This document shows positions 3,982-49,300 of a stretch of DNA of 64,000 nt, piece by piece (position 1 is the first letter of the stretch; every line of letters starts with the position of its first letter). The notes beneath the pieces are model-generated. The model searched no databases, was not told the origin of the DNA, and worked only from the letters and a program-made list of their open reading frames with translations. The stretch covers positions 1-64,000 of the IMG/VR virus record IMGVR_UViG_3300047666_000603; one strand, given 5' to 3'. This DNA is from a virus. Position numbers and translations under genes: made by a program.

Positions 3982-5457
3982 TTATTGTTTGTTTAATGTT
4001 TCTCTAATTTCCGTTAATGTTATTTGGTTTTTAAACTCACCATTAACGTATATTGTCTTTAATTCCCCGCCCTCATCTTCACGAGAAACAGATTGTATTA
4101 AAAAATAATCTTCACCATCTTTTTCGACTCTAAGGAGTCCTTTAGCTGATTTTTTGTCACCACTATCTGTTATTGGGTCTTTAAAAATTTCTCTTCCCTC
4201 TCCGCTCACCTCTATATAAGTGGCCTTCATAGCAAACCCATAAGTGTCTCTTGTGTTAAATTGGTAGGTGAATGAGCCGATACCTAATATAATATTGGTG
4301 CTTGCAAACCCCTTTTCAGCCAATCTAAGGCATATTTGTTGCGCTCTATCCACTGTTATACTATCCCCATATATAGCTCCTATATGAGGGTCTAACACCT
4401 TAAATCCCTGCTCATTAATAGTACCACCAAAGATGTCCCAAAGTAATTCTATTACTCCTTTATGTTCTGGTTTTAAACCATTACCTCCGTATGATTCTCT
4501 TTCCTGTTTACTTGAACCTCTACCACAAATAATATCAACAGGATCACCACTATCAGGACGGATAACCACTTTCCCATCACGGGAAAGAATTTCATCTTTA
4601 AGAACGGGTAAATACTCTGTAAGTACTTTCCATAAGTTCCAAGTGTCGCTTACAACAGAAAGAATGCCTACAGGAAATTGATTAAGCAAATACCTAAAAG
4701 TTCCTATCTCATCATCTTTCGTTCCTGCGCTCATAACGCTATGCTCTGTTGCGTTAACTGAATGAACAACATCACCCACCTCGTCGTAGTATTTTCGCGC
4801 CCCATGAATAGTGGGCAACCCGTCAGACCCTTTAAATGATGTAGCGTGGCCTAATCCACTAGAAATTGAAGCGTCAATAGAGTCCATCCCACGCATTGAG
4901 AAATCATGCCCCTGAAAATCCACAAACCCTAAATTGCCTGAGTCTGTTGTTTCGGCCCAAAATAAAAGCGTACCCTTATATATATTCGCAATAGTAGCGG
5001 AGGTTATGGGCTTCCATAAGAGGTTGCTAATTAGCGTCTCAAGATAATTTGTAATCCAATAAAAATCAGGGTGCGTATTTACAACCGTAAGAACAGGGAT
5101 GCCAATAGGCACAATCTCACCCTCTTTTATCCCCTTCACTTCAATGGGTAAATAGCCTAAATCATGCAGGCTCTCGAAGTGAGAAACGTCATAATTAGTA
5201 AATAGGTGCGCGGAAAACTCTCGCTTCAACTCCCCACAAACCTCTTCTTTTGGTTTTGAAAAGAATCCTTCGTTAAACATCTCATTAATCTTCCTTACAA
5301 CCATTTGTTGACCAAAGCTCACCACTCCGCTCAATCCTGCTTTTAAAGCGTGTCTATTACTTCTAGGTGTAAAATTGCTATACACTAATGTTGTTCCTTT
5401 CGGGTACATTAAGTGATGTCCTAATTTGTACGAGTCTGTTGCTAGTAATGGATTCAT
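3982..5457 (-). CDS. nicotinamide phosphoribosyltransferase family (Nampt/Namat-like)
   Basis: TDSYKLGH, HDFSMRG, ATEHSVM, SVVSDTWN, VIRPDSGDP, IYGDSIT, FAMKAT, KDPITDSGDKKSAKG. Confidence 0.93.
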   Translation of the reverse strand: MNPLLATDSYKLGHHLMYPKGTTLVYSNFTPRSNRHALKAGLSGVVSFGQQMVVRKINEMFNEGFFSKPKEEVCGELKREFSAHLFTNYDVSHFESLHDLGYLPIEVKGIKEGEIVPIGIPVLTVVNTHPDFYWITNYLETLISNLLWKPITSATIANIYKGTLLFWAETTDSGNLGFVDFQGHDFSMRGMDSIDASISSGLGHATSFKGSDGLPTIHGARKYYDEVGDVVHSVNATEHSVMSAGTKDDEIGTFRYLLNQFPVGILSVVSDTWNLWKVLTEYLPVLKDEILSRDGKVVIRPDSGDPVDIICGRGSSKQERESYGGNGLKPEHKGVIELLWDIFGGTINEQGFKVLDPHIGAIYGDSITVDRAQQICLRLAEKGFASTNIILGIGSFTYQFNTRDTYGFAMKATYIEVSGEGREIFKDPITDSGDKKSAKGLLRVEKDGEDYFLIQSVSREDEGGELKTIYVNGEFKNQITLTEIRETLNKQ

Positions 5458-5837
5458 TTGTATATTTCTTTTTTAAATTCTGTTAGTATTTCAATAGACT
5501 CATTTAACCCCGCCTTATCATCAAGAAGAATATTAAAGAATGGTTTATCTCCGTTACCGATTATTACAGGCGACCTATTTACGTAGTCAAAATTTATATC
5601 TAACGAATGTAGTATAAATTCCTTGTATTTCAAAGAAGAATTGTCAGAAACAGTGTAAATACAAAGAACAATGTCTTCTTTTTTAAACGATTTTATAAGG
5701 CTTTGAACCCTCGCGCACCTTTCCTCTATGTATTCTGATATTGTTAATGGGAAAATAGTGTCATCAAAATCAAGACCTATAATTATTTTACGGTGTTCAG
5801 AGAACGTTCTAATCAATTTTTCTGTCTCGTACCTCAT
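5454..5837 (-). CDS. HAD-superfamily phosphatase-like protein
   Basis: IGLDFDDTI (DxDxT motif I), KPFFNILLDDKAG. Confidence 0.7.
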   Translation of the reverse strand: MRYETEKLIRTFSEHRKIIIGLDFDDTIFPLTISEYIEERCARVQSLIKSFKKEDIVLCIYTVSDNSSLKYKEFILHSLDINFDYVNRSPVIIGNGDKPFFNILLDDKAGLNESIEILTEFKKEIYK

Positions 5838-6625
5838 ATCACTTTTGTTTGAGATACTAATGGGTTACTTATTTCTTTCACTGAATTTGTTGTTAGTATT
5901 CCCTTAAAATGTTTACCCAATTCATCGAACCCCTTACTAAATATACCATGTGTCACCCATAGAAATAAGTCCCCTCGAAATCCAGACATGGTTAATTGCT
6001 TAGATATTTCCACAAAAGTTCTACCTCCATCGCAAATATCATCTACAATTAAAGCCCTTTCAAATTTAGGTGTCTTACTTAATTTTGTGTGGGTGATTTC
6101 CCCACTTAATGATCTAATCTTTTCGCAAGACACAAAGTCTATGTCTAAATTTCCTGACGTGATTTTATTTAAAAACTCACAAAACGCCCAAACTTTTTTG
6201 TAAGCCCCAAAGTCAGGTGAAATTATGCTTATTCCATATTCCAATCCATTAGTTATCTTCACCACCTCATCAAGAATCATGGGAAATACGTCCATTTGCT
6301 CAAGATTGTCCACGGCGTTCTCTAAAGCCATTGAATGAGGGTCTATCGTAATCACCTTACTAAACCCTTGAGCGTTTATTAATGGGGCTAAAACATCCTT
6401 TACATAGTTTATTCCACCATCTTCAAAAGCCCTGTCGCTTCTACCGCCCATTATGTACGGGGCGTAAAGAGTTATTTTTTCTAATCCGTATCTTTTTAGC
6501 GCAACGCTTTTTACTATCATGTGTTGAAAATCTTCCCAAGAGGCCAATCTTGTTTGTATTTCACTATCATCATCGTCTTCCGCTCTATAAAGTAACTGTC
6601 CGTCTGGAAATTCTGTTAGTATCAT
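5834..6625 (-). CDS. ribose-phosphate pyrophosphokinase family (Prs/Adps-like)
   Basis: FPDGQ, PYIMGGRSDR, IDPHS, SPDFGA, IVDDICDGGRTF, VTHGIFSKG. Confidence 0.9.
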   Translation of the reverse strand: MILTEFPDGQLLYRAEDDDDSEIQTRLASWEDFQHMIVKSVALKRYGLEKITLYAPYIMGGRSDRAFEDGGINYVKDVLAPLINAQGFSKVITIDPHSMALENAVDNLEQMDVFPMILDEVVKITNGLEYGISIISPDFGAYKKVWAFCEFLNKITSGNLDIDFVSCEKIRSLSGEITHTKLSKTPKFERALIVDDICDGGRTFVEISKQLTMSGFRGDLFLWVTHGIFSKGFDELGKHFKGILTTNSVKEISNPLVSQTKVI

Positions 6626-10912: not shown

Positions 10913-11426
10913 TACTTATTGTTTTCAGCAAATTTAAGGGATTAGATTCATTCTTGCAAGAGAAAACAGAGAATTAATTCCTTATTCTTATTTAGACTAA
11001 ATAAAAATAGCCCCATAATTGAACTTTAATTTTCCCATAAACTTAGATGTGGCGGCGGAGGCGATAGCCGACGGTGGCGCAGAGAAGTTTATTATTACGT
11101 AGCTTGTAACACTTGCTATTCCCGCACTGTGTATAACAAGCACTAATTATGTTAAAAAGTTTTTGTATATTTAACATACTATGTCAGGAATGTTGGCTAA
11201 CTTTGCAGAGTGTATCTTTTCTACCGCTAAACCCAACGTTAATTAGTGTGTATTTCTAACGCAAATCCACTAACGTTTTTTTTGTTGTGTTGGGTGTTAC
11301 CCAGTGTGTGAGAATAAGTTGGCAATACAGGATGCTTGCGCCCCACCCCCTCGTTTATTTATTTTCAATGTAGTGTTGGTTCTTCCAAATATATTTACGT
11401 ATATTTACGGAAACAAAACAGTAGCA

Positions 11427-12038
11427 ATGAAAAAAGTAACAAAGAAATTACAGCAGTTTATTGATTCAATTTCAACCATTGGAGACAGTACTATACCTGA
11501 TGATGATGGTAAGATTTACTATTCTAAAGTGGACGGCTCCTATTTAACAAGAGTTGGTATGGAAAACGATTTAAACTACCTATTGAAATTAGGAGTAAGT
11601 GAGCAAATACAGAGCGGGTATGGGGAGCCATCCACCGCTTGTATTGGATTTAACCCAACAGAGCAAAAATGGTACGGGTGGAGTCATAGAGCAATATATG
11701 GGTTTGGCGTTGGTAGTGAATGTAAAAAAGGATCGTGCGGATATTCCGCAAGCAATAAAAAAGATTTTGCAGAAGAAAATTTAAGGTGGTATTGCGACAC
11801 AGACATGGATGAAACGTATAAAGTAGACATTTCTGCAAAAGAGGCAATACAAGAAGGTAAGTTAGGTGTTAAAGTTGAATATACATATAACAATAAAGTG
11901 CCAAACGAATCTATGAGAAGCACCACTCATTTTGTTTTTGAGCCGTATCCAAAGAAATGGGGGAAAGGAGAATGGACTGCAAACTCACTTAATGAAGCAA
12001 GAGAAATGGCTGTAGATTTCGCTAAAGGAGTTTCCTAA
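11427..12038 (+). CDS. hypothetical phage protein
   Basis: ATG at 11427 after tandem TATATTTACG; IGFNPTEQKWYGWSHRA. Confidence 0.65.
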   Translation: MKKVTKKLQQFIDSISTIGDSTIPDDDGKIYYSKVDGSYLTRVGMENDLNYLLKLGVSEQIQSGYGEPSTACIGFNPTEQKWYGWSHRAIYGFGVGSECKKGSCGYSASNKKDFAEENLRWYCDTDMDETYKVDISAKEAIQEGKLGVKVEYTYNNKVPNESMRSTTHFVFEPYPKKWGKGEWTANSLNEAREMAVDFAKGVS

Positions 12039-12846: not shown

Positions 12847-12958
12847 AACGCTGAGTGTATGGCACGTTGCCAGCACTAACTTAATTAATAACACAAAGAT
12901 TAAAGATATGGTAAAAGATAATTTAGAAAACGAACAGCAATGTGATATACACATTGTT
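12847..12958 (+). repeat. attC-like hairpin site A2
   Basis: AAC-gctga-GTGTATGGCACGTTGC ... GCAATGTGATATACAC-att-GTT. Confidence 0.8.
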
Positions 12959-13126
12959 AGGCATAGTTGCGAGATGATAACCGAAGAGTATGTTTATAAA
13001 AACGACTTTAGATTTCAACGAACACAGAAACACGGTATTTGGTTTGTGACCTACGAAAACCACTTAATAACATTTGGACAATATAGACATGATTTAGAAG
13101 AATGGATTGATAGCAATTATGCCTAA
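12908..13126 (+). CDS. cassette A2 ORF
   Basis: ATG inside loop of site A2; CDIHI-V-RHS crosses core; stop in TAAC. Confidence 0.65.
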   Translation: MVKDNLENEQQCDIHIVRHSCEMITEEYVYKNDFRFQRTQKHGIWFVTYENHLITFGQYRHDLEEWIDSNYA

Positions 13127-13211
13127 CGGTTTGGCTAAGATTACTAGCCTAAGTAATGAACTAATCAATTAAAAACTAAGCATCATAAGGCTATTAATTT
13201 TAGCCGTTGTT
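13125..13211 (+). repeat. attC-like hairpin site A3
   Basis: AAC-ggttt-GGCTAAGATTACTAGCCT ... AGGCTATTAATTTTAGCC-gtt-GTT. Confidence 0.8.
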
Positions 13212-13234
13212 ATGGTGCGTTAATTAACTTGAAA

Positions 13235-13432
13235 ATGACAAAAGAAGAAAGGAATTTAGACCCACACAGACCTGCAAGATGCGCTATGTGGCTGTATGCT
13301 GACCAATATACTCAGCAGAAAGGTGGTAGTATGGATTTTTGGGATAAGCTATCTGATAGTGATAAAAACACTTGTAGAAGAATGGTAGAACAAATTTCTT
13401 GCACAAGACCTGAATCTGATGATGAGCGGTAA
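13235..13432 (+). CDS. cassette A3 ORF
   Basis: ORF lies wholly between GTT 13209 and AAC 13441. Confidence 0.6.
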   Translation: MTKEERNLDPHRPARCAMWLYADQYTQQKGGSMDFWDKLSDSDKNTCRRMVEQISCTRPESDDER

Positions 13433-13440
13433 TGCACCAT

Positions 13441-13485
13441 AACACCAAGAGAAGTGCCGTTACTTAATGGCATTTCTCGGCTGTT
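13441..13485 (+). repeat. conserved short anchor hairpin (array A end)
   Basis: AACACCAA-GAGAAGTGCCGTTA-ct-TAATGGCATTTCTC-GGCTGTT; near-identical to 35679-35724. Confidence 0.85.
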
Positions 13486-13533
13486 GGGCCGAGTTTTAAT
13501 TCGGAATTTCTTTTATTTTCCATTTCCTCTACG

Positions 13534-17111: not shown

Positions 17112-17397
17112 ATGTTATATTGGCATATGGAAAACAAAGAAATTTCGGTTCTTTTGAAAGAAAGACTACAAGACATTGAAAAAAAATTAAAAGGTAGAGA
17201 TTTTTATTTAATTAAATATGTAAAAGAAGAGGTTATGATGTCCTATTCTGATGGATATAAAGACGCTTCTGATGTTGCTAGAAAGATTTTTTACAAATGA
17301 AAGAATTATTATCAATAGTTATTCCAATATTGCTTGCTGTTTTGTTATTTTGGTTTTGTTTTATTAGAACCCAAGATTGGGACGGGGGAGATGTATT

Positions 17398-18270
17398 ATG
17401 AAAGAAAAATTACTTGTAAGTTTCAGCGGCGGCGAAACATCTGCGTATATGGTGTGGTGGGTAAAGAAACACTGGGCTAATAAATACGATATAAAGTTTG
17501 TATTCGCCAACACTGGTGAGGAAAACGAAGAAACACTTTTGTTTACTAAAAAGTGCCAAGAATATTTTAATATTGATTTAGTTTGGGTGGAGGCTGTATT
17601 TCATAAAGAAAAAGGAAAAGGAACTACTCATAAGGTGGTTCCTTTTGAAGCGGCGGAAAGAAGTAATAAACTATTTATGGATATGGCTGCGGTATATGGG
17701 ATACCAAACCAAATGTTTCCCCACTGCAACAGGGAGCTAAAACTAGCCCCAATTAAGTCTTACTTGAGAAGTGTTGGGTGGAAAAAATATCAAACAGCTA
17801 TAGGGATAAGAAATGATGAAATAGATAGGGTTAACGTAAATAGAGAAAAATATAGGCTTTTATATCCGTTAGTTACAGATCAACCAATGACAAAGCCTAA
17901 AATAAACTTTTGGTGGTCACAACAACCATTCAGGTTAAATTTAAAGGGTTATCAAGGAAACTGCAAAACGTGTTGGAAAAAGGGTGATAATAAATTGTAT
18001 CAAATAGCAAAAGAAAATAGACGGTTTTTTGACTCATTTAAAGAAGTTGAAAAAACTTACACTAATTTTGTTCCAGAAGGAAGAAGTGCTACGGATGAAA
18101 AGATTACATTTTTTAGAAGGGGGAGGTCTACGGAGCAGATATTAAAAGAAGCGGAAAATTTTAACGGTGTAGTAAGAGATGATTCCGCCGAAATAAATTA
18201 TCAAACATCAATACTAGATTACGATGAAAGTGAAAGTTGTGATATTTATGCAATGTGTGGGGATAATTAA
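17398..18270 (+). CDS. PAPS-reductase-like (adenine nucleotide alpha-hydrolase) protein
   Basis: VSFSGGETS, FANTGEE, CNRELK, GIRNDE, GNCKTCWKK. Confidence 0.75.
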   Translation: MKEKLLVSFSGGETSAYMVWWVKKHWANKYDIKFVFANTGEENEETLLFTKKCQEYFNIDLVWVEAVFHKEKGKGTTHKVVPFEAAERSNKLFMDMAAVYGIPNQMFPHCNRELKLAPIKSYLRSVGWKKYQTAIGIRNDEIDRVNVNREKYRLLYPLVTDQPMTKPKINFWWSQQPFRLNLKGYQGNCKTCWKKGDNKLYQIAKENRRFFDSFKEVEKTYTNFVPEGRSATDEKITFFRRGRSTEQILKEAENFNGVVRDDSAEINYQTSILDYDESESCDIYAMCGDN

Positions 18271-18387
18271 AACAGCACTATGAGCGAACAAAGAAGAAGA
18301 CGACGTAAGATGCAAAGGGAATACGAGAAGTATATGCGAGAAATACGTAGGGATGCTTTTAAGAGAGCCGAGGAGCAGAAGGAAGAG

Positions 18388-18455
18388 AAATGATTTTTAA
18401 CACTAAGCTAAGTTCCGTTATTTCAATGGAATTTAGCGGCTGTTAGAAGTTGTTT
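18388..18455 (+). repeat. solo (empty) anchor site of the cassette system
   Basis: AACACTAA-GCTAAGTTCCGTT...AATGGAATTTAGC-GGCTGTT; outer flanks AAATGATTTTTAAC/GTTAGAAGTTGTTT pair with each other (WC or G-T at all 14 positions). Confidence 0.8.
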
Positions 18456-18462
18456 CTTTTTT

Positions 18463-18498
18463 CAATAACAAGGAGCAAAACAGAGAGTGTTACTTTTG
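18463..18498 (+). promoter_or_regulatory. putative late promoter CAATAAC-N21-TACTTTTG
   Basis: one of 7 copies with identical spacing ahead of virion/lysis genes. Confidence 0.7.
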
Positions 18499-18518: not shown

Positions 18519-20666
18519 ATGTCTGTCACAAGTACTTCTGCGAAAATAAAGTTTACCATAGGTAGTTTTGACTACGATACAACGTTAGTTCTTCCCGCCA
18601 CAACCGAAGAAAATAAACTCACATTAGAGTTTGAGGAATTAGTAACAAGTCAGCTTACGGGTTGGGGTGATATTCCTAGAGATGTATACGTTCTATTAGA
18701 TGTAAAGTTTGAGGGAGAGGATTGGTACAAGAACCCTCAATACGACAGCCCAAGCACAACCCTAGTCCCAACAGACCCCGATATTACAATTGTTCCAGAC
18801 GCAAATCCAGCAACGGTAGAGACTGTAACGATAAACAACCTTGTGCCTATGGTGACAGATATAAGTGGAGACATTTCTATTGGAACATACATAGTGAACG
18901 CTAAGTTTGTTTATTGGGCTAATGACACGGCATTTGGCTCTAGTGTTACAGCATTTACGGCAGACTTATCATGGGAGAGTAAGGAGCCAACACTTTCAGA
19001 GTGGTACGACACCCAAACCCCAAAACTACAAATAACAGACGGTCAAAGCTACGTAATAGACGGGGTGACGGCAGATAGAGACACGGAGTTTGTTCTTTCC
19101 CCACCACAAAACAGAGCGGAAGTGGTAAACACCTTTGACAACATTCAAAAGGTGTCTTACACAAGTTTTTGGACGGGAGGTAATGAGATGACCTATACGA
19201 TTCTTCTCACCTACACATTCACCACCTACATCATTGAAAACGTACAGCAAGACTACAGTGCATTTACGGTGTACAATATAGACAACTGCAAAATATTTAA
19301 TTGCCTCAAAGACCAATACGACATTTGGCAAGCGGCAACTTGCGGAACAAAGAATGAAGTGGTGGCTAAGGACATGTTGTACAAAGCAACCTCAATAGCC
19401 TTACAAATAACACAAGGGTTAGGATGCAATAGCGATGAATTGAGTGCGCTTATAGAAGACTTCAACACATTAGTAGACTGCGACTGCGGCTGCTTAGATG
19501 AAACACCAACACAACTTGGAAGCACAAGCACTGTAACGGCCACAAACCGACAAACTGTAACAGCAGACACAGCCACCACAACCATAGACCTAAGCGCGGG
19601 AAGTAACGTAACAATAAACGTAAGCGCAACTACAGAATTAGACATCACTAATATTGAGCAGTTTACAAACTACAGATTAATATTTGTAGCCTCAGCAGGA
19701 GGGGAAGTGATTTCATTCCCATCAGCCGACTTTGAGGATGACAACGGTGTAGTGGGTGATATAACGTTAGATGTGCGCGGCGTTCTTATACTTGATTTTT
19801 ACGCATACCTATCCACTAAGCTAACATTAGTGAGTAGAAGTGATGCTGATGATTACGATAGAGATTTACAGCAAGTTTCCGCTACAACAGCAGCAACATC
19901 TGTAGATTTGAACGAGGGAAACATAGTTAATGTAGCTCTTGCTGTAGGGGGAGGCACAACAGAAATGAGTGTCACAAATATAAAGGAAAACGACGAATAT
20001 ATGTTTATATTTAGTCGGGGTTTTTCTACGCAAGAAGCAACATTCTCTTCCGATTTCAATGGCCCAAATGCCACTGTACCTTCTGTAACACCACTACTTG
20101 ATGATAAAGTGGTTCTTTCATTTATAGCCACATCATCTAGTGAATTGACACTAACATCGAGAAGTGATGAAGTTACAAGCGCGGTGGAGACAGTGGTGGG
20201 AACGGCAACAGAAATAGACATTGACTCCGCAGATGCTCAAAATCCTATTGTTTCTTTAGCGGTGGAAGTAACAGCATCATTAGCTCTAGCCGACTCCGCA
20301 TTGCAGAGTGGTGATAACGTGAGTGTGTTAACGAATGATGCGGGGTATATTGTTGGTTCTTTTCAAGATGTTGGAGCGCAAACAAGCCCTTACACCATTA
20401 ATTTTGCAAGCGGTAGTATAGCGTATTTAAGTTTTGCTAATGCCGCCATAACTATAGATGCTTCTAGCATAATTGAGGGAAGTGAGTATAAGATAATAAT
20501 TAGAAATTCAGGCGCAGGCTCACAAGACGTAACCCTAACAACAGACCCTTTTTGGTCTTTTGCAGCCATTTCCGTTGGTTCAACGCAAGTATTGGGGATT
20601 ACTTTTGTTTGTGTTGATATTGGGGGTACAAATTACCTAGTTCCAACAGGTCAGCAAATAAACTAA
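18519..20666 (+). CDS. virion structural protein with repeated beta-rich C-terminal domains
   Basis: first gene after late motif; acidic and Thr-rich; CDCGC; repeats TIDLSAGSNV / SVDLNEGNIV / TINFASGSIA. Confidence 0.55.
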   Translation: MSVTSTSAKIKFTIGSFDYDTTLVLPATTEENKLTLEFEELVTSQLTGWGDIPRDVYVLLDVKFEGEDWYKNPQYDSPSTTLVPTDPDITIVPDANPATVETVTINNLVPMVTDISGDISIGTYIVNAKFVYWANDTAFGSSVTAFTADLSWESKEPTLSEWYDTQTPKLQITDGQSYVIDGVTADRDTEFVLSPPQNRAEVVNTFDNIQKVSYTSFWTGGNEMTYTILLTYTFTTYIIENVQQDYSAFTVYNIDNCKIFNCLKDQYDIWQAATCGTKNEVVAKDMLYKATSIALQITQGLGCNSDELSALIEDFNTLVDCDCGCLDETPTQLGSTSTVTATNRQTVTADTATTTIDLSAGSNVTINVSATTELDITNIEQFTNYRLIFVASAGGEVISFPSADFEDDNGVVGDITLDVRGVLILDFYAYLSTKLTLVSRSDADDYDRDLQQVSATTAATSVDLNEGNIVNVALAVGGGTTEMSVTNIKENDEYMFIFSRGFSTQEATFSSDFNGPNATVPSVTPLLDDKVVLSFIATSSSELTLTSRSDEVTSAVETVVGTATEIDIDSADAQNPIVSLAVEVTASLALADSALQSGDNVSVLTNDAGYIVGSFQDVGAQTSPYTINFASGSIAYLSFANAAITIDASSIIEGSEYKIIIRNSGAGSQDVTLTTDPFWSFAAISVGSTQVLGITFVCVDIGGTNYLVPTGQQIN

Positions 20667-21332: not shown

Positions 21333-21958
21333 TGGCAACACCACACCCTATATCTCTAAGCAAAATAGGTGAGAGAGTTAAGAGGCTGTTAAGCGCAGGA
21401 AAAGACCTTGTAGAAAACAGGGTGACACAAAGGGATGCTGAATTAGCTGTAGCCGAAGCAAGGGATGAATCAATAGTGGAGTACTTAGGGCAGCTGAAAG
21501 CTGCGGGAGAACCCGCTATGCCATTTGATTTTATAAGCGAGAAAACCGTAACAGCAGAGAAGTCGGGGAACCTACACAAAGCAACCCTACCCACACGTCC
21601 TTTATCAATAGGAGGAAAAGCAAGCGGAATATTTACAGTGGTGTTTGAACAAGACCCCTCACACGAAATATTCCCAACAACAATAAGCCACAACACAATG
21701 TTTAAAGGCCAACCCGCAGAGAACATGGAGAGTGATGCTTATTACACACCATTCGAGGACACTTTAAGAATATGGGGGTTAGAAACCGATAGCTGCAATA
21801 TAATAGTTCAATACGTACAAGTGGGAGAACAGTTTGATGCAGATGAATATTTCGCTGTGCCACCCGAACTTATTGATACGATAGTGGCTAAAGCCGTTAA
21901 AATGCTCTCAATGCAACTTTCCCAAGAAGACCCATTTACCGACGCGAAGAACCTTTAA
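21332..21958 (+). CDS. putative ring/adaptor virion protein
   Basis: coupled to previous gene; C-terminal FAVPPELIDTIV. Confidence 0.5.
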   Translation: MATPHPISLSKIGERVKRLLSAGKDLVENRVTQRDAELAVAEARDESIVEYLGQLKAAGEPAMPFDFISEKTVTAEKSGNLHKATLPTRPLSIGGKASGIFTVVFEQDPSHEIFPTTISHNTMFKGQPAENMESDAYYTPFEDTLRIWGLETDSCNIIVQYVQVGEQFDADEYFAVPPELIDTIVAKAVKMLSMQLSQEDPFTDAKNL

Positions 21959-22821
21959 CTAATCACTTGCCCTTTAAATAGGTTGAAGTTCATTACAATA
22001 TCCCCACTTTCTACAAGTATTATAATATGTTCTGCGTAACGCGCACGACTCTTTGTTTGATAAACAAGGGCCACCTTTCCATTAAACGGTAGTTTAGGAT
22101 TATGAAGCCTAGCTAATCTTTGGTGTTTCGCGGGAACACAGTCATACTTTATTTGAGCCGCCTTATTACCCGTAATAATAATACCATTACGCTCATACTC
22201 CAAACCCTCAAACTCATCCATCTTATAGAACTTACCGTAGGCTTCTCCATCAACAGACGCCACTCTGCTTTTCATTACAGCCCAATACTGCACTTCTTTC
22301 TGCCAAAACTCAACACGTCTTCCGTGTATGTATTCTATTTCAGAGCCAACAGGAATATCATCCTCATTGCTATTCACCACCTCAAGAATGTTTGGATTCT
22401 CCGCATTATACAAAGCAATCCCATTCTTCTCCTCTATCTTATGCTCTTTCGTTTTACCCAACACCCAATTATCACTATAAGCCGTTGTAATATCCGCACC
22501 AACAAAAGCAACCCCACCATCCTTAAAATGATAAATAGGCTTGTCTTCATACTCACCAAAATGCTCATCACCAATAAAACTACTATCAACAACAGTGTTA
22601 GCCACCCATAGATGAGAGCCTATTGGATACTTAGCCCCTTCCGTTCTACCTATAACCTCCACATGATTTGAGAAGTTAGTGTATTTACCCACACCTGTAC
22701 GCGGCCTCATTTCAATTTCAATACCTGTGTCTCCAAGTTCAAACTTATCAAAGCCATCCTTCACCTCTACGGAGAAGTATTTCTCGTTAACATCTTCTAA
22801 GTTTTCAACAATCCTTGTCAT
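21955..22821 (-). CDS. GroES-like co-chaperonin-domain protein
   Basis: repeated (E)KNGI.L / ERNGIII...V...GSEI beta motifs reminiscent of GroES. Confidence 0.4.
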   Translation of the reverse strand: MTRIVENLEDVNEKYFSVEVKDGFDKFELGDTGIEIEMRPRTGVGKYTNFSNHVEVIGRTEGAKYPIGSHLWVANTVVDSSFIGDEHFGEYEDKPIYHFKDGGVAFVGADITTAYSDNWVLGKTKEHKIEEKNGIALYNAENPNILEVVNSNEDDIPVGSEIEYIHGRRVEFWQKEVQYWAVMKSRVASVDGEAYGKFYKMDEFEGLEYERNGIIITGNKAAQIKYDCVPAKHQRLARLHNPKLPFNGKVALVYQTKSRARYAEHIIILVESGDIVMNFNLFKGQVIS

Positions 22822-23023: not shown

Positions 23024-23479
23024 ATGGACACACAGACACTAATTAACGCGATAGGGGATATTCATTTCCCTAATGAAAAAGCAATACTTAAAGTGAGGGC
23101 TTCGGTCTGGTATAAAAGCCTATCAATTAAGGAGAAATCACAAACCGAAGAGGACGTAAGGAGGCTACTCGATCAAACACAAAAAGCTCTTTTAGGGGTG
23201 CATGAGGTTTACTCCACCCCATTTGACCGCATCACCATACTTTCAATGTTCCATGAGCCAGTGAATCTAATATGGAAAGAGGACAAAACGGTATTAAACG
23301 GTAAGCGGGTGAAGCGGCATTACTTCTCATTAGACAACGTAGACTACAAGCCAAAAACAATAGCAGACTTTGTTAGTTTGATAGATAGCTTGGAAAGGCA
23401 TAAGCTCACTCCTAAGTTTTCGGGGGATAAAAGCTCGGCAGCATTACTATGGAACAAGAGCCGCAATAACACTCAATAG
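23024..23479 (+). CDS. hypothetical protein
   Basis: 151-aa ORF in compact operon. Confidence 0.5.
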   Translation: MDTQTLINAIGDIHFPNEKAILKVRASVWYKSLSIKEKSQTEEDVRRLLDQTQKALLGVHEVYSTPFDRITILSMFHEPVNLIWKEDKTVLNGKRVKRHYFSLDNVDYKPKTIADFVSLIDSLERHKLTPKFSGDKSSAALLWNKSRNNTQ

Positions 23480-25191: not shown

Positions 25192-25294
25192 TTTTTATTC
25201 GTATATTTGGAGGGTTAATTACAACGGTTTAAATATAGTGTCGTGGCGCACCCAATAAATGCCACTAAACTTAAAAATTGGTAAATATTTGATT

Positions 25295-25510
25295 ATGAAA
25301 AACAGACTTAAATTTAACCTGCGCTATGCACTATATTTTGTGTTGTGTGTAGTGCTTTTATCTAGCTGCGTTGAACGTAGGTGCTATGATGAAGAGCATA
25401 TACTGTTAATAACCGAAAATGCCTTTTTAGAAGGATATAAAGCAGCATTAATGAAGCAGCACCAAGATAGTGCGTGGAATAATGTGAAACAGCAATACAA
25501 GTTTGACTAG
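25295..25510 (+). CDS. cassette B1 ORF, predicted lipoprotein
   Basis: MKNRLKFNLRYALYFVLCVVLLSS-C lipobox. Confidence 0.65.
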   Translation: MKNRLKFNLRYALYFVLCVVLLSSCVERRCYDEEHILLITENAFLEGYKAALMKQHQDSAWNNVKQQYKFD

Positions 25511-25560
25511 TATTACACACAATGGACAAGGCTAAACGAAGTAATTTAAAAAGATTTGAA

Positions 25561-25827
25561 ATGATAAAACTAAAAGCAGAAGTAAACAAAAGTGCAGTAA
25601 TGAGAGAATTACAAGCAAAAGCAATTGAAAGATTTAAAGACTCTTGGCAACCTGAATTACAAGTACAAGCCTACATGAATGGAGCGCATGACCTTTTTAA
25701 ATTATTGCGTTTAGGTGATGTTAGCGTTTCGTTTACGGATAGATTATTTGAAATAGCTTATGATTACGAATCTTCCGTAAGCGAACGAATGGAACAAATA
25801 AAGACCTTATTAGTAAATGAACGCTAA
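25561..25827 (+). CDS. cassette B2 ORF
   Basis: about 60% encoded within the hairpin site; LGD-V-SVS crosses core; stop in TAAC. Confidence 0.6.
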   Translation: MIKLKAEVNKSAVMRELQAKAIERFKDSWQPELQVQAYMNGAHDLFKLLRLGDVSVSFTDRLFEIAYDYESSVSERMEQIKTLLVNER

Positions 25828-25880
25828 CACCAAGCTATAAAGCGTTTCAATGCTTTTATAGCGTCTGTTGTGATTTAATA

Positions 25881-25916
25881 CAATAACAAGCCCTCACTAG
25901 CAATCGCTTAAATTTG
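25881..25916 (+). promoter_or_regulatory. putative late promoter CAATAAC-N21-TAAATTTG
   Basis: upstream of portal. Confidence 0.7.
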
Positions 25917-34473: not shown

Positions 34474-34500
34474 TAAAAAGGAGGTGATGTTCTAAAATAA

Positions 34501-34532
34501 AAAGCCCTGCATTTGTTTGCGGGGCTTTTTTT
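34501..34532 (+). terminator. intrinsic terminator (possibly bidirectional)
   Basis: AAAGCCCTGC-atttgttt-GCGGGGCTTT + T run. Confidence 0.8.
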
Positions 34533-34602
34533 GTTTATATTTGCTCATAACGTTAAATGTAAAAAGCATTTTAATGATTTTTAAATAATGTTGTAAGTAG
34601 TT

Positions 34603-34714
34603 GCTGCGGTATGCAAGAGTAAATGACTTCTAATTGTCGCCCTGCAAAGGTTGGTCAAAGCAGCGTCCGCAAAACGTGCCGCAAGGTTCGAGGGTTCGAA
34701 TCCCTCTCGTAGCA
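34603..34714 (+). ncRNA. atypical tRNA-like RNA (GCA loop, 34-nt D-loop insert), cassette C1 cargo
   Basis: acceptor GCTGCGG/TCGTAGC, T-arm GAGGG-TTCGAAT-CCCTC, D-arm TGCAAG..TGGTCAAAGCA, arm GCGT-CCGCAAA-ACGT, variable arm GCC-GCAA-GGT. Confidence 0.7.
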
Positions 34715-34973
34715 GCTATTACTTACAACGTTTAGTATAAAAATAGTAAGGGGTGGAGGTTGAAATCTCCCGACTCATAGGTAGCTATAATCTTGTCCAT
34801 ATCCTATGCCAAGCCCGTAGGTTATAGACCCCTTATTTTATTTACACATTGTTGTATGTCTTTTTTAATTGCATACAACTACAAAGCTATGTGGCGTGGC
34901 TACAACAACGCTGAAATAAACAAACAAGTCGCCCAGCCATGCCATATAGGTAATGTTGTGGTGCGTTTTTATT

Positions 34974-35669: not shown

Positions 35670-35741
35670 TTGCATCCCAACACCAAGAGAAGTGCCGTTT
35701 TTTCAATGGCATTTCTCGACTGTTGTGAGCATATTCTTTAC

Positions 35742-46300: not shown

Positions 46301-49300
46301 CATATAACTAAGAAGCAGAAGGGGTTTAAGTTAGCTAAACAACCAAAAACAACCAAGCCTGTTACGGTGGAGCAAGTGAAAGACACCTATATAGAGGGTG
46401 ATGAGGTGGAGTTTAGTGTATTTGGGGGAACAGAAAAGGGAACCATCCTACCAAACGGAAGAGTAAAGTCTAAGAGTGGAACAAACTACAGGATAGGAAG
46501 CGGAATAGGTCAAGCCACGATAAATGAAAACCTAGACAGTGCTTTTCAAAAAGGCGCAAGACAGGCTATTAAGTTCCTTGATGATGTAGATAAAAAACTA
46601 GCAAAACAGAGTAGGGAAACATTAGGAATGAACCTACCCATTGCTATTGCTCAATCCGCTGTAAAGGTAGCTAAAGCGGCTATTAAGGCGGGGGCAACAG
46701 TGGCTAATGCAATTGAAAAGGCAATTCAGACAGTGAGGGATTCGGATTGGTACAAAAACCTATCAACCAAGGAGCAAACACAGGCCGAAGAGGATGTGAA
46801 GAAACTATTCAACGCCCCACCGAAATCAGTGCCAACAAAAGCCGAGGCTAAGAAAATAGTTGATGGGGCTGTGCAGCAATCAGAAGAAGCATTGAGAAGC
46901 CCAACCGTAAACCCATTAAACAAGAAGGGAAGGCAGAACATCGTTAATAAGCTACGTTCATGGTTCACGGACAGGCAGGGAACCGTTAAGCAGTTTATAA
47001 GAAGAATGAACCTCCCAAACGCAGAGGCTTTCCTTATAAATGCAAAAGGCGCAAGCGGATATGCAAGCAAACTTTATGAGGGGTTTCATAAGTCAATTTA
47101 CGGGGGGCTAAAATCAGACCTAGCAGAGACGCTAGATAGAATAATATTCCTACGCAGGGTGGTGCAGATTGACGACTCACGAGATGCAGCGGGAGAACTC
47201 CGCGTAAAACACCCAAACAACATCAATAGAGAAATAGCAATTGTTGAACTTGAAAACTTAAAGGAAGAGCTAGGAGACGAGAAGTACAACAGCCTATTAG
47301 AAAGAAGTGACGCTTATTTCGATTCCTTTAGAGAGGTGTTGAAGATGTCATACAAAGAAGGCTTGATAGATGAGGAGACATACAATAAGTTTAAGGACAA
47401 CAACTACCAACCGCGTAAGTTTATTAAATACATATTTGACCCCAATGTAGGTGAATCACAGAAAAACGCAGCCCTACAGAGATTGGCTAGGGAGAATGGG
47501 GTGAGGCAAGAAGTAATAAAGTCGTTAGCAGACGGTAGTACAGAGGAGATATTCTTAGACTCTCGTTTTCTTTTACAGGCAAGTATAAACTCCCTTACAA
47601 AAAGAATAGCACAAAATAAAGCCAATAGAAAGCTAATAGACGACTACAATAAACTTTCCGAAGAAGAGAAGGCCGAAGCCCCTGAAATGAGACAGAGGAA
47701 GCCTATAGCCAAAACAAAGCAAGGTAACTTAGTTTACCCACAAAATCCTGATGGATATTCAGTGGTGTATTATTACGAAGGCGGTCAGCAGAAGTCATTC
47801 TTCTTGCAAGATGATTTGTACGAGCAATGGTATGACTTTAGTAGTAGTATGAACTCCGATTGGGAGAAAGTTATCAGTACGATTTCAGGCAGTAGGCTAT
47901 TGAAAGCTATGGCTACGGGGTTAAATCCTTTATTTATCGCAGCAAACATCCCCCGTGACTTTGGACACATACTTCTTTTTACAGACGCGTATGATAGCGC
48001 AAAAGTATTGGGGGTTCCCATTCTTCCTATTAACGCTTTAAAATTAGCGCGAGACGGAGCTAAGGATTTCTTTGGTTTAATAGCGGGAAATAAAGCCACA
48101 ACAGACCTTCTTAGTCAAGCGGCGGAAGATGGTATGTTAATGGATTTCCTTTCTATACAAGGGAAACCTAAAGGCGGTAAGGTTGCTCGATCTGTTGGTG
48201 GGGCAAGAAAAATATTACGTGGAGCAGCAGATATGGCGGCATATCTAGGAGAGAAGTCTGAGATTGCATTTAGGCTTTCGGTTTATCGAAGACAAATAAA
48301 AGAACTCTCTAAGGAATTTAAAAAAGAAAATGGATCAGACCCGCAGGGGGTGGACTTAGAAAACATTAGGGGTAGGGCAGCGGCTAAAGCGCGAAGTATA
48401 ATTGACTTTAATCAGGGTGGAACTGTTACTAAATCAGCAGAGGCGGCTCTTCCATACATAAGCGCAGCCACACAGGGGGCGAGAGTGGCAGCAGACTACA
48501 TGACAAACCCGAAATCAATTAAAGATTTCATGACTAAATCAGCGCAAGCGGCGGGGTTTGTGGCGGGTATCACTTTATATAATCTATCTTATGGAGAAGA
48601 AGATTGGGAAAACGTACCAGATTGGGAAAAGTTAAGGTATTTTATTTTCCTCCTCCCTTGGAAGGATAAGGATGGAAATAGAGAATACCTACGTCTAGCT
48701 AAAACTCAGCAAGCCATTCCCTTATTTAACATAGTAGAGCATACCACAGAATCACTCATAAGAGAATCAAGGGGTACGGACACGGAGGCAAGCTACCAAA
48801 TGAGAGAGGATAGAATGGTGGAGTCACTGAAAGAGTTTATGCCTGTAAACCCATCGGATGTAGCGTCAAGAAACCCGCTAATCAGTTCAGCAGCATCGTA
48901 CATAACAAACTACGATCTTTATAAAGATAGACCTGTGACAAGAGACTTCAATAAGGTTCTCCCTTACTATGAGGGTGCTAATGACCCGCGAATAGAGGAG
49001 TTTTATAAAGCGATAGGGAGAGAAACAGGAATGTCTCCCGCAAGAGGGAAAGCAGCAATAGAGAAGATAATTACAAGTCCGACAACAAATCCATTAGTGG
49101 GTCTTGCATACGCGGCGGGTGAGTCAATAGTGGCAGATAAGGATGCTGAAAAACAACTACAGAAGTTTGCTAAAAAAACTTTTGAAGGTGTGTCTAGGAA
49201 GTTTTACAGGTCAACATATCCTGAGTGGAAGTCATTTAAGGAAAAGGAAATTGTTGAATTTTACAAGCTAGAAAACGCCACAGAAAAGAGGAGGATAAAC

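What the first reader, a model, noticed from the sequence alone, without database searches (positions are those of the whole stretch)
18388..18455. Empty docking site and conserved anchor hairpin
Arrays A, B and C all end in a short hairpin with consensus AAC-ACYAA-G...C-GNCT-GTT (13441-13485, 25826-25869, 35679-35724). This 5/4-nt spacer class is distinct from the 5/3-nt internal sites. A fourth copy stands alone here, and its outer flanks pair with each other at all 14 positions, as expected for a site that holds no cassette. Three of the four anchors sit 11-18 bp before a late-promoter motif, at module boundaries. Inference: this is the resident attI-equivalent platform.
Basis: partly seen in the sequence, partly recalled or inferred. 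Interest (0 to 1): 0.85.

Follow-up and report, generated by a model that had tools for sequence, protein, structure and literature searches.

The report
Unoccupied cassette-docking hairpin in a phage
This small folded site between two phage genes belongs to a widespread, apparently undescribed family of hairpins in phages of Bacteroidota at which accessory genes are swapped in and out, and here it seems to hold no insert.

Summary
AACACYAAG-N20-45-CTGTT occurs four times in the window, all on the + strand (0.06 expected). The copy at 18399-18444 is the only one whose flanks pair with each other: 14 of 14 positions, 9 Watson-Crick and 5 G.T.

The hairpin is not private to this phage. A stricter pattern finds 69 stretches in IMG/VR and 11 hairpin-forming loci in bacterial genomes or MAGs, mostly Bacteroidota prophages. 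No Rfam family matches. The stem covaries strongly.

Comparison supports the docking behaviour:
- Among 20 pairs of sites with identical hairpins, upstream homology stops 0-1 nt before AAC in 15.
- The hairpin stays with shared downstream DNA in 10 pairs, and never the reverse.
- About half of the anchors (31 of 59; controls 1 and 0) have a left flank complementary to bases after an upstream GTT, as integron cassette ends are.
- A roughly 98%-identical strain appears to carry extra DNA at this very site.

It is not an attI homologue. It is a folded site like the cassette sites, occurs several times per genome, and the genome encodes no tyrosine recombinase.

The enzyme is unknown. Whether the fold acts as RNA or as single-stranded DNA is undecided, and an RNA processing or terminator role remains a serious rival.

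Earlier notes of this scan describe similar TAAC...GTTA hairpin cassettes in at least 118 other genomes.

The parts
18399..18444 (+). Solo compact 'anchor' hairpin: AACA/TGTT base, 4x3 internal loop, 13-bp stem, 5-nt loop
   Evidence: Pattern match. Fold. Best hit of covariance model R1, 69.4 bits.
18385..18398 (+). Left flank (x'), 5' strand of the outer closing helix. It overlaps the stop codon of the small ORF.
   Evidence: Read. Pairs with 18445-18458 at 14 of 14 positions (9 WC, 5 G.T). Run of 14. Outer stem predicted.
18445..18458 (+). Right flank (x), 3' strand of the outer closing helix. It carries the conserved GTT box at +8..+10 and runs into a T run.
   Evidence: Strain X4 has T18451C, which turns the G.T at pair 7 into G-C.
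18280..18393 (+). Small basic ORF (37 aa) that ends 5 nt before the hairpin
   Evidence: Read. A homologous small ORF stands before the same downstream gene in L104.
18463..18498 (+). Late-promoter-like motif CAATAACAA-N19-TACTTTTG ahead of the 715-aa gene (ATG at 18519)
   Evidence: The same composite motif stands before the genes at 25914, 30749, 35796 and 41071, and in L102 and L104. Promoter activity is inferred.
13441..13485 (+). Anchor copy 1, at the end of array A
13489..13504 (+). Second small hairpin with the GTTTTAAT loop, as found after most family members
13212..13440 (+). Last unit of array A (ORF 13229-13432). Its first 11 nt complement its last 11 nt.
   Evidence: GTT at 13209 and AAC at 13441, 11 pairs of which 10 are WC.
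25826..25869 (+). Anchor copy 3, before the late promoter and the portal gene
   Evidence: In strain X4 the replaced stretch 25209-25826 ends at the first base of this AAC. An anchor stands at the same place before the portal gene of L104.
35679..35724 (+). Anchor copy 4, before the late promoter and a virion gene
   Evidence: Its right flank (35725-35731) pairs at 7 positions with the left flank of the first site of array C (34542-48).
13125..13211 (+). Long 'internal' AAC...GTT site (12-bp stem, 51-nt loop)
12847..12958 (+). Internal AAC...GTT site. The unit after it has 12 complementary end pairs.
   Evidence: About 72% similar to sites in L009 and five other loci.
25223..25344 (+). First site of array B (11-bp stem, 86-nt loop), just after a TATATTTG box
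   Evidence: Its left flank pairs with the right flank of copy 3 at 7 of 8 positions.
34549..34592 (+). Divergent compact site right after an intrinsic terminator and a TATATTTG box
   Evidence: R1 hit of 22.7 bits. Sequence. Shared by many contigs in four metagenome runs.
34593..34726 (+). Unit whose cargo is a tRNA-like sequence. Its ends pair at 9 positions.
   Evidence: ARAGORN calls no tRNA.
34877..34957 (+). Divergent site with a long loop
   Evidence: R1 hit of 26.5 bits. Sequence.

Best explanation
The hairpin at 18399-18444 is a compact member of a conserved, strand-specific family of folded sites in phages of Bacteroidota. These sites mark the points at which accessory gene units are joined to each other and to core genes.

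Each site stays with the DNA downstream of it, and exchange happens in or next to its 5' AAC. A unit therefore has the layout [AAC-hairpin-GTT, x, cargo, x'], where x and x' are complementary. If the unit were a circle, x and x' would close the site into one long helix.

At 18.4 kb the site is in that closed form: its own two flanks pair. So it is a resident junction that currently holds no insert, placed between a small ORF and the late promoter of a 715-aa gene.

The most likely mechanism is structure-specific recombination of the folded gene-sense strand, as at integron attC sites but in mirror orientation, with the site upstream of its gene. The enzyme is not encoded in this genome and is unknown.

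Shown: the family, the fold, the junction position, the complementary ends, and the variability of the locus.
Inferred: the recombination chemistry, the strand used, and the 'empty' state.

The closed helix followed by a T run may also stop or process transcripts. This is an inference only.
For: Family and fold:
- 69 stretches in IMG/VR match a 22-base pattern.
- The 59-sequence alignment gives 18 pairs. 94.4% of cells are paired against 80.7% in shuffles (0 of 500 reach it), and 145 cells changed on both sides against 52.9.
- G.U is frequent and A.C rare.

Junction at AAC:
- Of 20 pairs with identical hairpins, upstream homology ends 0-1 nt before AAC in 15.
- 10 pairs, in 5 independent groups, share 79 nt or more downstream but nothing upstream. 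No pair shows the reverse.
- L011 and L050 are 99.2% identical for 4569 nt starting at the AAC, with nothing shared upstream.

Cassette ends:
- 13 of 59 anchors have 9-16 ungapped pairs between their left flank and the bases after a GTT 90-750 nt upstream. Both controls give 0 of 59.
- With bulges allowed, 31 of 59 reach -14 kcal/mol or lower, against 1 and 0 of 59 in the controls.
- 12 of those 13 share a G.T at pair 8, as the solo site does.
- The same signature is seen in this genome, in L104 (13 of 13 pairs) and in L009.

This locus:
- The own-flank run of 14 is the longest of 67 sites.
- Strain X4 has another hairpin plus at least 360 nt of other DNA after the left flank.
- L102 has the hairpin behind a different upstream gene, and L104 has none.
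- The outer ends of arrays B and C pair at 6-7 consecutive positions.
Against: - No recombinase. PF00589 is absent from the whole genome, while the control rang in 14 of 14 genomes. It is present in only 6 of 42 other records with anchors, and in none was adjacency shown. None turned up among 10 large ORFs of 5 prophage loci.
- No circle, excision product or clean insertion was seen. L011 against L050 is a module swap, not a simple insertion.
- The X4 evidence rests on short-read contigs that break at the repeat, so the inserted state is pieced together from separate contigs of similar depth.
- With RNA energy parameters the sense strand folds better in 50 of 59 sites. With DNA parameters it does so in only 24 of 59. 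This fits an RNA-level role at least as well as a DNA-level one.
- Short conserved blocks (AACACYAAG) could give the same junctions through microhomology.
- Between 28 and 46 of the 59 anchors, depending on the test, show no closing partner.
Confidence: 0.5

Rival explanations
1. The element acts at the RNA level. The hairpin, with its lower stem, internal loop and upper stem, would be an intercistronic processing, stabilising or terminating signal of the sense transcript. Each accessory ORF would be closed by a long-range helix, as rRNA precursors and T7 early mRNAs are for RNase III (that comparison is recalled, not tested). Gene swapping at the sites would then be a side effect of recombination at short conserved blocks, as proposed for PeSLs of T4-type phages.
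For: - Sense-strand G.U bias: with RNA parameters the sense strand is more stable in 50 of 59 sites (p = 2e-9), with no difference under DNA parameters.
- G.U is conserved at fixed positions.
- All copies are co-oriented with the genes.
- The stop codon of the upstream ORF lies -2 to 13 nt away in most sites.
- Each of the four copies here is followed by a promoter-like motif.
- The solo site is a long helix followed by six Ts.
- PeSLs are composite promoter and stem-loop motifs that mediate indels between close phages (PMC2839356, abstract and section 13; PMC4122927, abstract).
Against: - There is no consistent T run after the family. The T-rich columns at +9 to +12 belong to the loop of the second hairpin.
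- In many relatives only 20-50 nt separate the hairpin from the next start codon, so an efficient terminator there would silence that gene.
- Only 1-5 copies occur per genome, too few for a general terminator.
- The conserved blocks are 8-9 nt, short for homologous exchange.
- The junction is one-sided, 10 pairs against 0.
- Only about half of the units keep a closing helix. That fits decay of a by-product better than a selected RNA structure.
Confidence: 0.28
2. The hairpin is the 5' leader of the downstream transcription unit. The conserved upstream AAT(T/G) would be a Bacteroidota -7-type promoter box, transcription would start at AAC, and the 5' stem-loop would protect or regulate the mRNA.
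For: - A conserved motif lies at a fixed distance upstream: T at -8 in 57 of 59 sites.
- At 34538-34545 a canonical TATATTTG lies at -13 to -6 before a divergent site, right after a strong terminator.
- The hairpin is inherited with the downstream gene.
- In many loci there is no room for another promoter before the next gene.
Against: - The upstream motif has A at -9 (47 of 59), where the host box has T, and there is no -33 box.
- The motif is explained instead as one strand of the closing helix. It pairs with a conserved GTT after the partner site.
- Homology starts at AAC, so the supposed promoter would belong to unrelated upstream DNA each time.
- Three of the four copies here are followed by a separate promoter-like motif.
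Confidence: 0.08
3. The solo site is an ordinary intrinsic terminator of the small upstream ORF, and its likeness to the three other copies and the pairing of its flanks mean nothing more.
For: A long helix followed by TTTCTTTTTT. It lies between a stop codon and a promoter-like motif.
Against: - Sequence conservation across at least 55 distinct sites in other phages, with covariation.
- The simple terminator scan does not pick the site out and finds fewer candidates than in shuffles.
- L104 has the same two genes with no hairpin between them.
- Junction and cassette-end statistics.
Confidence: 0.04

Closest known systems
Integron attC sites and integrase-less attC clusters (CALINs), including those reported in phages (PMC9892861, abstract only; attC features from passages of PMC5027507)
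   Same: - An imperfect single-strand hairpin with conserved AAC and GTT triplets at its base, an unpaired spacer above the base and a variable terminal loop.
- The sequence is otherwise free but the structure is kept.
- Units have complementary first and last bases.
- Sites stand in arrays of small accessory genes.
- The junction falls in or at the AAC.
   Different: - There is no IntI or any tyrosine recombinase in the genome.
- The site lies upstream of its gene, and the junction is at the AAC of the gene-sense strand. In integrons it is the bottom strand, with attC downstream of the gene.
- The flank consensus RYYYAAC is not met at -2 (Y in 22 of 59).
- There are extra conserved boxes with a fixed G.T wobble: CGTT/AATG at the top of the stem, and AAT/GTT at pairs 8-10 of the closing helix.
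- The compact anchors are only 44-48 nt long.
- Recognition by IntI1 was not tested.
attI of integrons
   Same: A resident site at the edge of an array, next to which cassettes accumulate. In arrays B and C a resident promoter-like box (TATATTTG) stands before the first site, as Pc stands before attI.
   Different: As I recall, attI is a double-stranded site next to intI, one per platform. Here the anchor is a folded hairpin of the same build as the cassette sites. There are at least four per genome, they have no neighbouring recombinase, and they stand at the promoter-distal end of the array.
PeSLs (promoter-early stem-loops) of T4-type phages (PMC2839356, abstract and section 13; PMC4122927, abstract)
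   Same: Small conserved intergenic stem-loop motifs with G-T pairs, between the stop of one gene and the start of the next. They are concentrated among small accessory genes and lie at the ends of indels and replacements between close relatives.
   Different: - PeSLs are defined by a sigma-70 promoter plus a terminator stem-loop, and exchange is ascribed to homologous recombination.
- Here no canonical promoter lies inside the element.
- The junction is at one fixed triplet.
- The units have complementary ends, which the parts of the PeSL papers that I read do not describe.
Folded single-strand sites used by Xer recombinases (CTX phage attP), recalled and not looked up
   Same: A hairpin of one DNA strand serves as the substrate of a host tyrosine recombinase, so the element needs no recombinase of its own.
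   Different: No dif-like arms were recognised. There is no evidence here for Xer involvement, and the recombinase claim in earlier scan notes was not borne out in my loci.

Membership tests
Integron (attC / cassette array) | IntI-type tyrosine recombinase encoded beside the array | tested here: not met
   PF00589 gives no match at E <= 0.1 in the 73,238-bp genome, while the control rings in 14 of 14 genomes. It is found in 6 of 42 other anchor-bearing records, with adjacency shown for none.
Integron (attC / cassette array) | Imperfect hairpin with conserved AAC and GTT triplets paired at its base | tested here: met
   AACA/TGTT is invariant in 59 of 59 sequences, although the search pattern imposes it. 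The divergent R1 hits and the long sites keep AAC...GTT.
Integron (attC / cassette array) | Unpaired central spacer, extrahelical bases and variable terminal structure | tested here: inconclusive
   A 4x3-nt internal loop above the base and a variable loop are present. No consistent extrahelical bases were seen.
Integron (attC / cassette array) | R-box consensus RYYYAAC / GTTRRRY | tested here: not met
   R at -4 in 31 of 59; Y at -3 in 41 of 59; Y at -2 in 22 of 59; Y at -1 in 58 of 59.
Integron (attC / cassette array) | The first bases of a cassette complement its last bases, because the site is split on integration | tested here: met
   13 of 59 anchors ungapped against 0 of 59 in two controls. 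31 of 59 against 1 and 0 with bulges allowed. Units in this genome have 9-12 end pairs.
Integron (attC / cassette array) | attC lies downstream of its ORF, with crossover at G|TT of the top strand | tested here: not met
   The hairpin is inherited with downstream DNA, and the junction lies 0-1 nt before the 5' AAC.
Integron (attC / cassette array) | Recombined by an integron integrase | not testable with these tools
   This needs an attC x attI assay.
attI | A single double-stranded site adjoining intI | tested here: not met
   There are four strong and four weaker copies in the genome, all folded, and no intI. The definition of attI is recalled.
PeSL | Composite of a host-type promoter and a stem-loop | tested here: inconclusive
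   The upstream AAT(T/G) motif is unlike the host -7 box at -9 and is better explained by pairing. Separate promoter-like motifs follow the hairpins.
PeSL | Lies at the ends of indels and replacements between close relatives | tested here: met
Intrinsic terminator | G+C-rich stem directly followed by a U run | tested here: inconclusive
   The solo site has a T run after the outer helix. The family has none directly after CTGTT. The scan is uninformative.
Any Rfam family | Match to a curated covariance model | tested here: not met
   No match at gathering score in the window. No match at E <= 1 in five loci totalling 48,334 bases.

The most novel reading that the evidence does not exclude
Phages of Bacteroidota carry an integrase-less, mirror-image counterpart of the integron. 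Folded sites of the gene-sense strand sit upstream of their genes and are recognised by structure, AAC/GTT cores and fixed G.T wobbles. An enzyme supplied by the host or by another element, of unknown kind, would recombine them. Compact anchors such as 18399-18444 would be the resident docking sites through which lytic phages exchange anti-defence cargo such as DNA methyltransferases. This window would then show a natural empty site beside three occupied ones.
Probability: 0.4. Interest if true: 0.88.

Novelty: new variant of a known kind. Interest (0 to 1): 0.72.

Why it matters
If the sites are true recombination sites, lytic phages of a major bacterial phylum have a dedicated way to gain and lose single accessory genes at fixed points next to core genes. 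That would explain part of phage mosaicism by a mechanism rather than by chance.

In my loci the commonest neighbours of the anchors are DNA methyltransferases (18 loci). A Thoeris-inhibitor homologue stands just before array A. The system may therefore serve the turnover of anti-defence genes.

The compact anchor is short, conserved and easy to search for. Here it occurs in a closed form beside occupied forms, and in natural pairs with the same downstream DNA but different upstream DNA. This makes the question directly testable, and it gives a handle for finding the missing enzyme.

If the hairpins prove to be RNA signals instead, they are still an undescribed structured RNA family of Bacteroidota phages.

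Tried and rejected
Known RNA families: none in Rfam at gathering score or at E <= 1.

Terminator of a phage RNA polymerase. The CTGTT end reminded me of the T7 class II signal, which I recalled and did not look up. PF00940 gave no match, but its control rang nowhere, so this says little. I dropped the idea for lack of any support.

CRISPR-repeat mimic. The genome-collection scan found single copies, with one triple at about 820-bp spacing, and no repeat arrays.

Decoy for the anticodon loop of tRNA-Lys. This was suggested by the UUUUAA loop and by the RNA ligase and kinase genes. It is rejected because the loops vary (GTTTCAAT, GTTCGCAGAAT and others).

Host-type promoter in the upstream motif. 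This gave way to the pairing explanation.

Cis-regulator of one gene family. Rejected because the downstream genes are diverse: portal, protease, Erf, helicase, NinG and unknowns.

General own-flank pairing. It is not a family trait.

Genome-wide counts of AAC...GTT hairpins with 7-bp stems, and of 7-pair end complements, equal chance: 58 against 60, and 37 against 39. Only the long ones stand out.

Sigma-70 and terminator scan: fewer hits than in shuffles, so uninformative.

Relatives:
- Single-protein look-ups of the 715-aa protein and of the portal, and the alignment A3, found no relative in IMG/VR.
- The metagenome scan gave three loci.
- The small array ORFs have almost no homologues in my loci.
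- No family recurrently near anchors looks like a recombinase.

No RNA holder was listed for the stretch. Only DNA contigs could be laid.

Literature. Searches found no description of such hairpin-bounded cassettes in Bacteroidota phages. The nearest items are PMC9892861 and the PeSL papers. Supplementary files were not consulted.

Full report
What is there. The window is the first 64 kb of a 73,238-bp virus record with 127-bp terminal repeats and 39.8% G+C. Genes on the + strand run from 11.3 to 56.2 kb. They include an RNA ligase, a polynucleotide kinase, a primase-helicase, a PAPS-reductase-like gene, portal, terminase and virion proteins.

The pattern AACACYAAG-N20-45-CTGTT occurs four times, all on the + strand, against 0.06 expected, and nowhere else in the genome. 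All four copies fold alike: AACA/TGTT base, a 4x3-nt internal loop, a 12-13-bp stem and a small loop. The stems differ between copies through compensating changes.

The copy at 18399-18444 stands alone, between a 37-aa basic ORF (18280-18393) and a promoter-like motif. Its flanks 18385-98 and 18445-58 pair at 14 of 14 positions, 9 Watson-Crick and 5 G.T. Three copies end 11-18 nt before CAATAACAA. That motif, followed 19-22 nt later by a TAnnTTTG-like box, precedes five + strand genes and one - strand gene.

A widespread family. A stricter pattern of 22 specified bases finds 69 stretches in IMG/VR, of which 55 are distinct with 12-nt flanks. It also finds 20 stretches in the bacterial genome collection. 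Eleven of those form the hairpin. Eight lie in genomes or MAGs titled as Bacteroidota and three in two other MAG bins. The other nine stretches are non-hairpin chance or coding matches. The bacterial loci I checked are prophage regions, with terminase, portal and DnaB genes.

No Rfam family matches.

In the 59-sequence alignment, 94.4% of cells pair against 80.7% in shuffles (0 of 500 reach it). 145 cells changed on both sides against 52.9. Slid controls pair at 28-51%.

Covariance model R1 finds the four strong copies plus four weaker ones in this genome, all co-oriented with the genes. It finds 1-5 copies in five other large phage records.

Upstream and downstream proteins are unrelated from locus to locus. 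The element is therefore not a regulator of one gene.

Where the mosaic joints lie. Among 60 distinct sites with 200-nt flanks, 20 pairs have identical hairpins:
- Upstream similarity ends 0-1 nt before AAC in 15 pairs, and within 11 nt in 18.
- Ten pairs, in five independent groups, share 79 nt or more downstream but nothing upstream.
- Eight pairs share neither side.
- Two pairs share both sides.
- No pair shares the upstream side only.

L011 and L050 are 99.2% identical for 4569 nt starting at the first base of AAC, with no similarity in the 3.2 kb or more upstream. L050's site is closed (10 flank pairs) and L011's is not. So the hairpin travels with the DNA downstream of it, and the joint lies in or next to the 5' AAC.

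Cassette-type ends.

In this genome the answer is yes for:
- the unit before copy 1 (11 pairs);
- the unit before site 13125 (12 pairs);
- the tRNA-like unit (9 pairs);
- three units of a - strand array at 66.2-67.7 kb (11, 10 and 7 pairs).

The genome-wide count at the 7-pair threshold equals chance in the same call.

Across the family, 13 of 59 anchors have 9-16 ungapped pairs with a GTT-led partner 90-750 nt upstream. Both controls, a reversed flank and a downstream window, give 0 of 59. With bulges allowed, 31 of 59 reach -14 kcal/mol, against 1 and 0 in the controls, and 26 of 59 reach -16 against 0 and 0.

This also explains the conserved upstream motif (T at -8 in 57 of 59). It is one strand of the closing helix, and 12 of the 13 helices have G(+8).T(-8), as the solo site has.

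L104, a phage whose portal is 74% identical, has an anchor at the same place before the late promoter and portal gene. Other small genes lie upstream of it, and the ends of its last unit pair at 13 of 13 positions. L009 shows a full array with the same logic.

The outer ends of arrays B and C here pair at 6 and 7 consecutive positions; array A pairs at only 3.

The locus in relatives.
- L102 (715-aa homologue, 51% identical) has the hairpin (72.7 bits) before the same promoter-like motif, but behind a different upstream gene.
- L104 has the small basic ORF running straight into CAATAACAA, with no hairpin.
- DNA contigs of a roughly 98%-identical strain (run X4) lack 17122-18273.
- In X4 the left flank of the solo site continues into a hairpin like copy 4 and at least 360 nt of other DNA.
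- In X4 a copy-2-type hairpin stays joined to 18445 onward.
- X4 shows a further hairpin before 21956.
- X4 replaces 25209-25826, ending at the first base of the AAC of copy 3.

These X4 contigs break at the repeat, so the occupied state is inferred from separate contigs of similar depth.

What it most likely is. The anchors are resident members of a family of folded junction sites, and the solo copy is such a site in closed form, which most likely means it holds no insert.

The pattern mirrors integron cassettes: conserved AAC/GTT at the base of an otherwise free hairpin, a joint at the triplet, units with complementary ends, and arrays of small accessory genes. The attC features come from passages of PMC5027507.

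Defining features of integron membership fail, however:
- There is no tyrosine recombinase in the genome, and it is rare in other records.
- The site lies upstream of its gene.
- The joint is on the sense strand.
- RYYYAAC is not kept.
- The anchor is not an attI-like double-stranded site.

I therefore file it as working like an integron site, not as a member.

The RNA rival is serious. G.U pairs are frequent and A.C pairs rare. With RNA parameters the sense strand is more stable in 50 of 59 sites, but with DNA parameters in only 24 of 59. The solo site, with its lower stem, internal loop, upper stem and T run, looks like a processing or terminator hairpin. PeSLs of T4-type phages show that regulatory stem-loops can sit at indel ends (PMC2839356, abstract and section 13; PMC4122927, abstract).

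Against the RNA rival: copy number is low, there is no regular U run, many hairpins lie close to the next start codon, the joint is one-sided, and only about half of the units keep a closing helix.

Novelty. Phage attC sites and CALINs have been reported (PMC9892861, abstract). My five literature searches found no account of this Bacteroidota-phage family.

The scan itself has noted TAAC...GTTA hairpin cassettes in at least 118 other genomes. Those notes are unchecked leads. Their claim of a Xer-like recombinase found no support in my loci.

New here:
- the compact anchor class and its spread;
- the one-sided joint at AAC;
- the closing-helix statistics with the fixed G.T;
- natural closed and open pairs.

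Limits. No experiment was possible.

Noticed in passing
window 11304-12038 (+): The 244-aa protein just before array A matches Pfam Tad6, a type I Thoeris inhibitor (E = 1.9e-37). It is a probable anti-defence gene at the edge of the cassette region.
   Followed up: no
window 3982-5457 (-), 5834-6625 (-): A NAMPT/NAPRTase-family enzyme and a weak PRPP-synthetase-like neighbour. Together they may form an NAD-salvage pair of the kind phages use against NAD-depleting defences. The function is my inference.
   Followed up: no
window 34603-34714 (+): A tRNA-like sequence with a TPsiC-arm-like GGTTCGAATCC. ARAGORN does not call it. It forms the cargo of a unit with 9 complementary end pairs (GTT at 34590, AAC at 34727).
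   Followed up: partly
window 18463, 25881, 30698, 35742, 41017 (+); genome 65825 (-): The composite motif (T)TTCAATAACAA-N19-22-TAnnTTTG-like stands ahead of structural genes. It is also conserved before the orthologous genes in L102 and L104. It is probably the late promoter of this phage group.
   Followed up: partly
window 13489-13504; most loci: A second small hairpin directly follows most anchors. It is a 5-6-bp stem capped by CGTT-tt-AATG, so it looks like a closing helix without cargo. Its role is unknown.
   Followed up: partly
genome 66227-67721 (-), beyond the window: A - strand array of four or five long AAC...GTT sites (stems of 12-18 bp) with 63-96-aa ORFs. Some ORFs start inside the site loops.
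   Followed up: partly
window 17122-18273: The PAPS-reductase-like gene and the 62-aa ORF before it are absent from the roughly 98%-identical strain in run X4. The breakpoints lie at gene borders, not at a hairpin.
   Followed up: no
window 21956-21962: In strain X4 a copy-2-type hairpin plus a second hairpin appears to sit just before 21956. The seven bases TAACTAA lie on both sides of the joint. This could be an insertion at a TAAC.
   Followed up: no
window 34497-34533: A strong canonical intrinsic terminator (G+C-rich stem and seven Ts) is followed at once by a TATATTTG box and a divergent site. The 30-50-nt core of that site is shared by many different contigs in four metagenome runs.
   Followed up: partly
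loci L011, L014, L019, L022, L037, L046 and others: N6/N4 DNA methyltransferases are the commonest gene family near anchors (18 loci). They often end 10-13 nt before the AAC.
   Followed up: partly
window 23074-23170 and 46714-46810: A 97-nt direct repeat, 77% identical, lies 23.6 kb apart inside coding regions.
   Followed up: no
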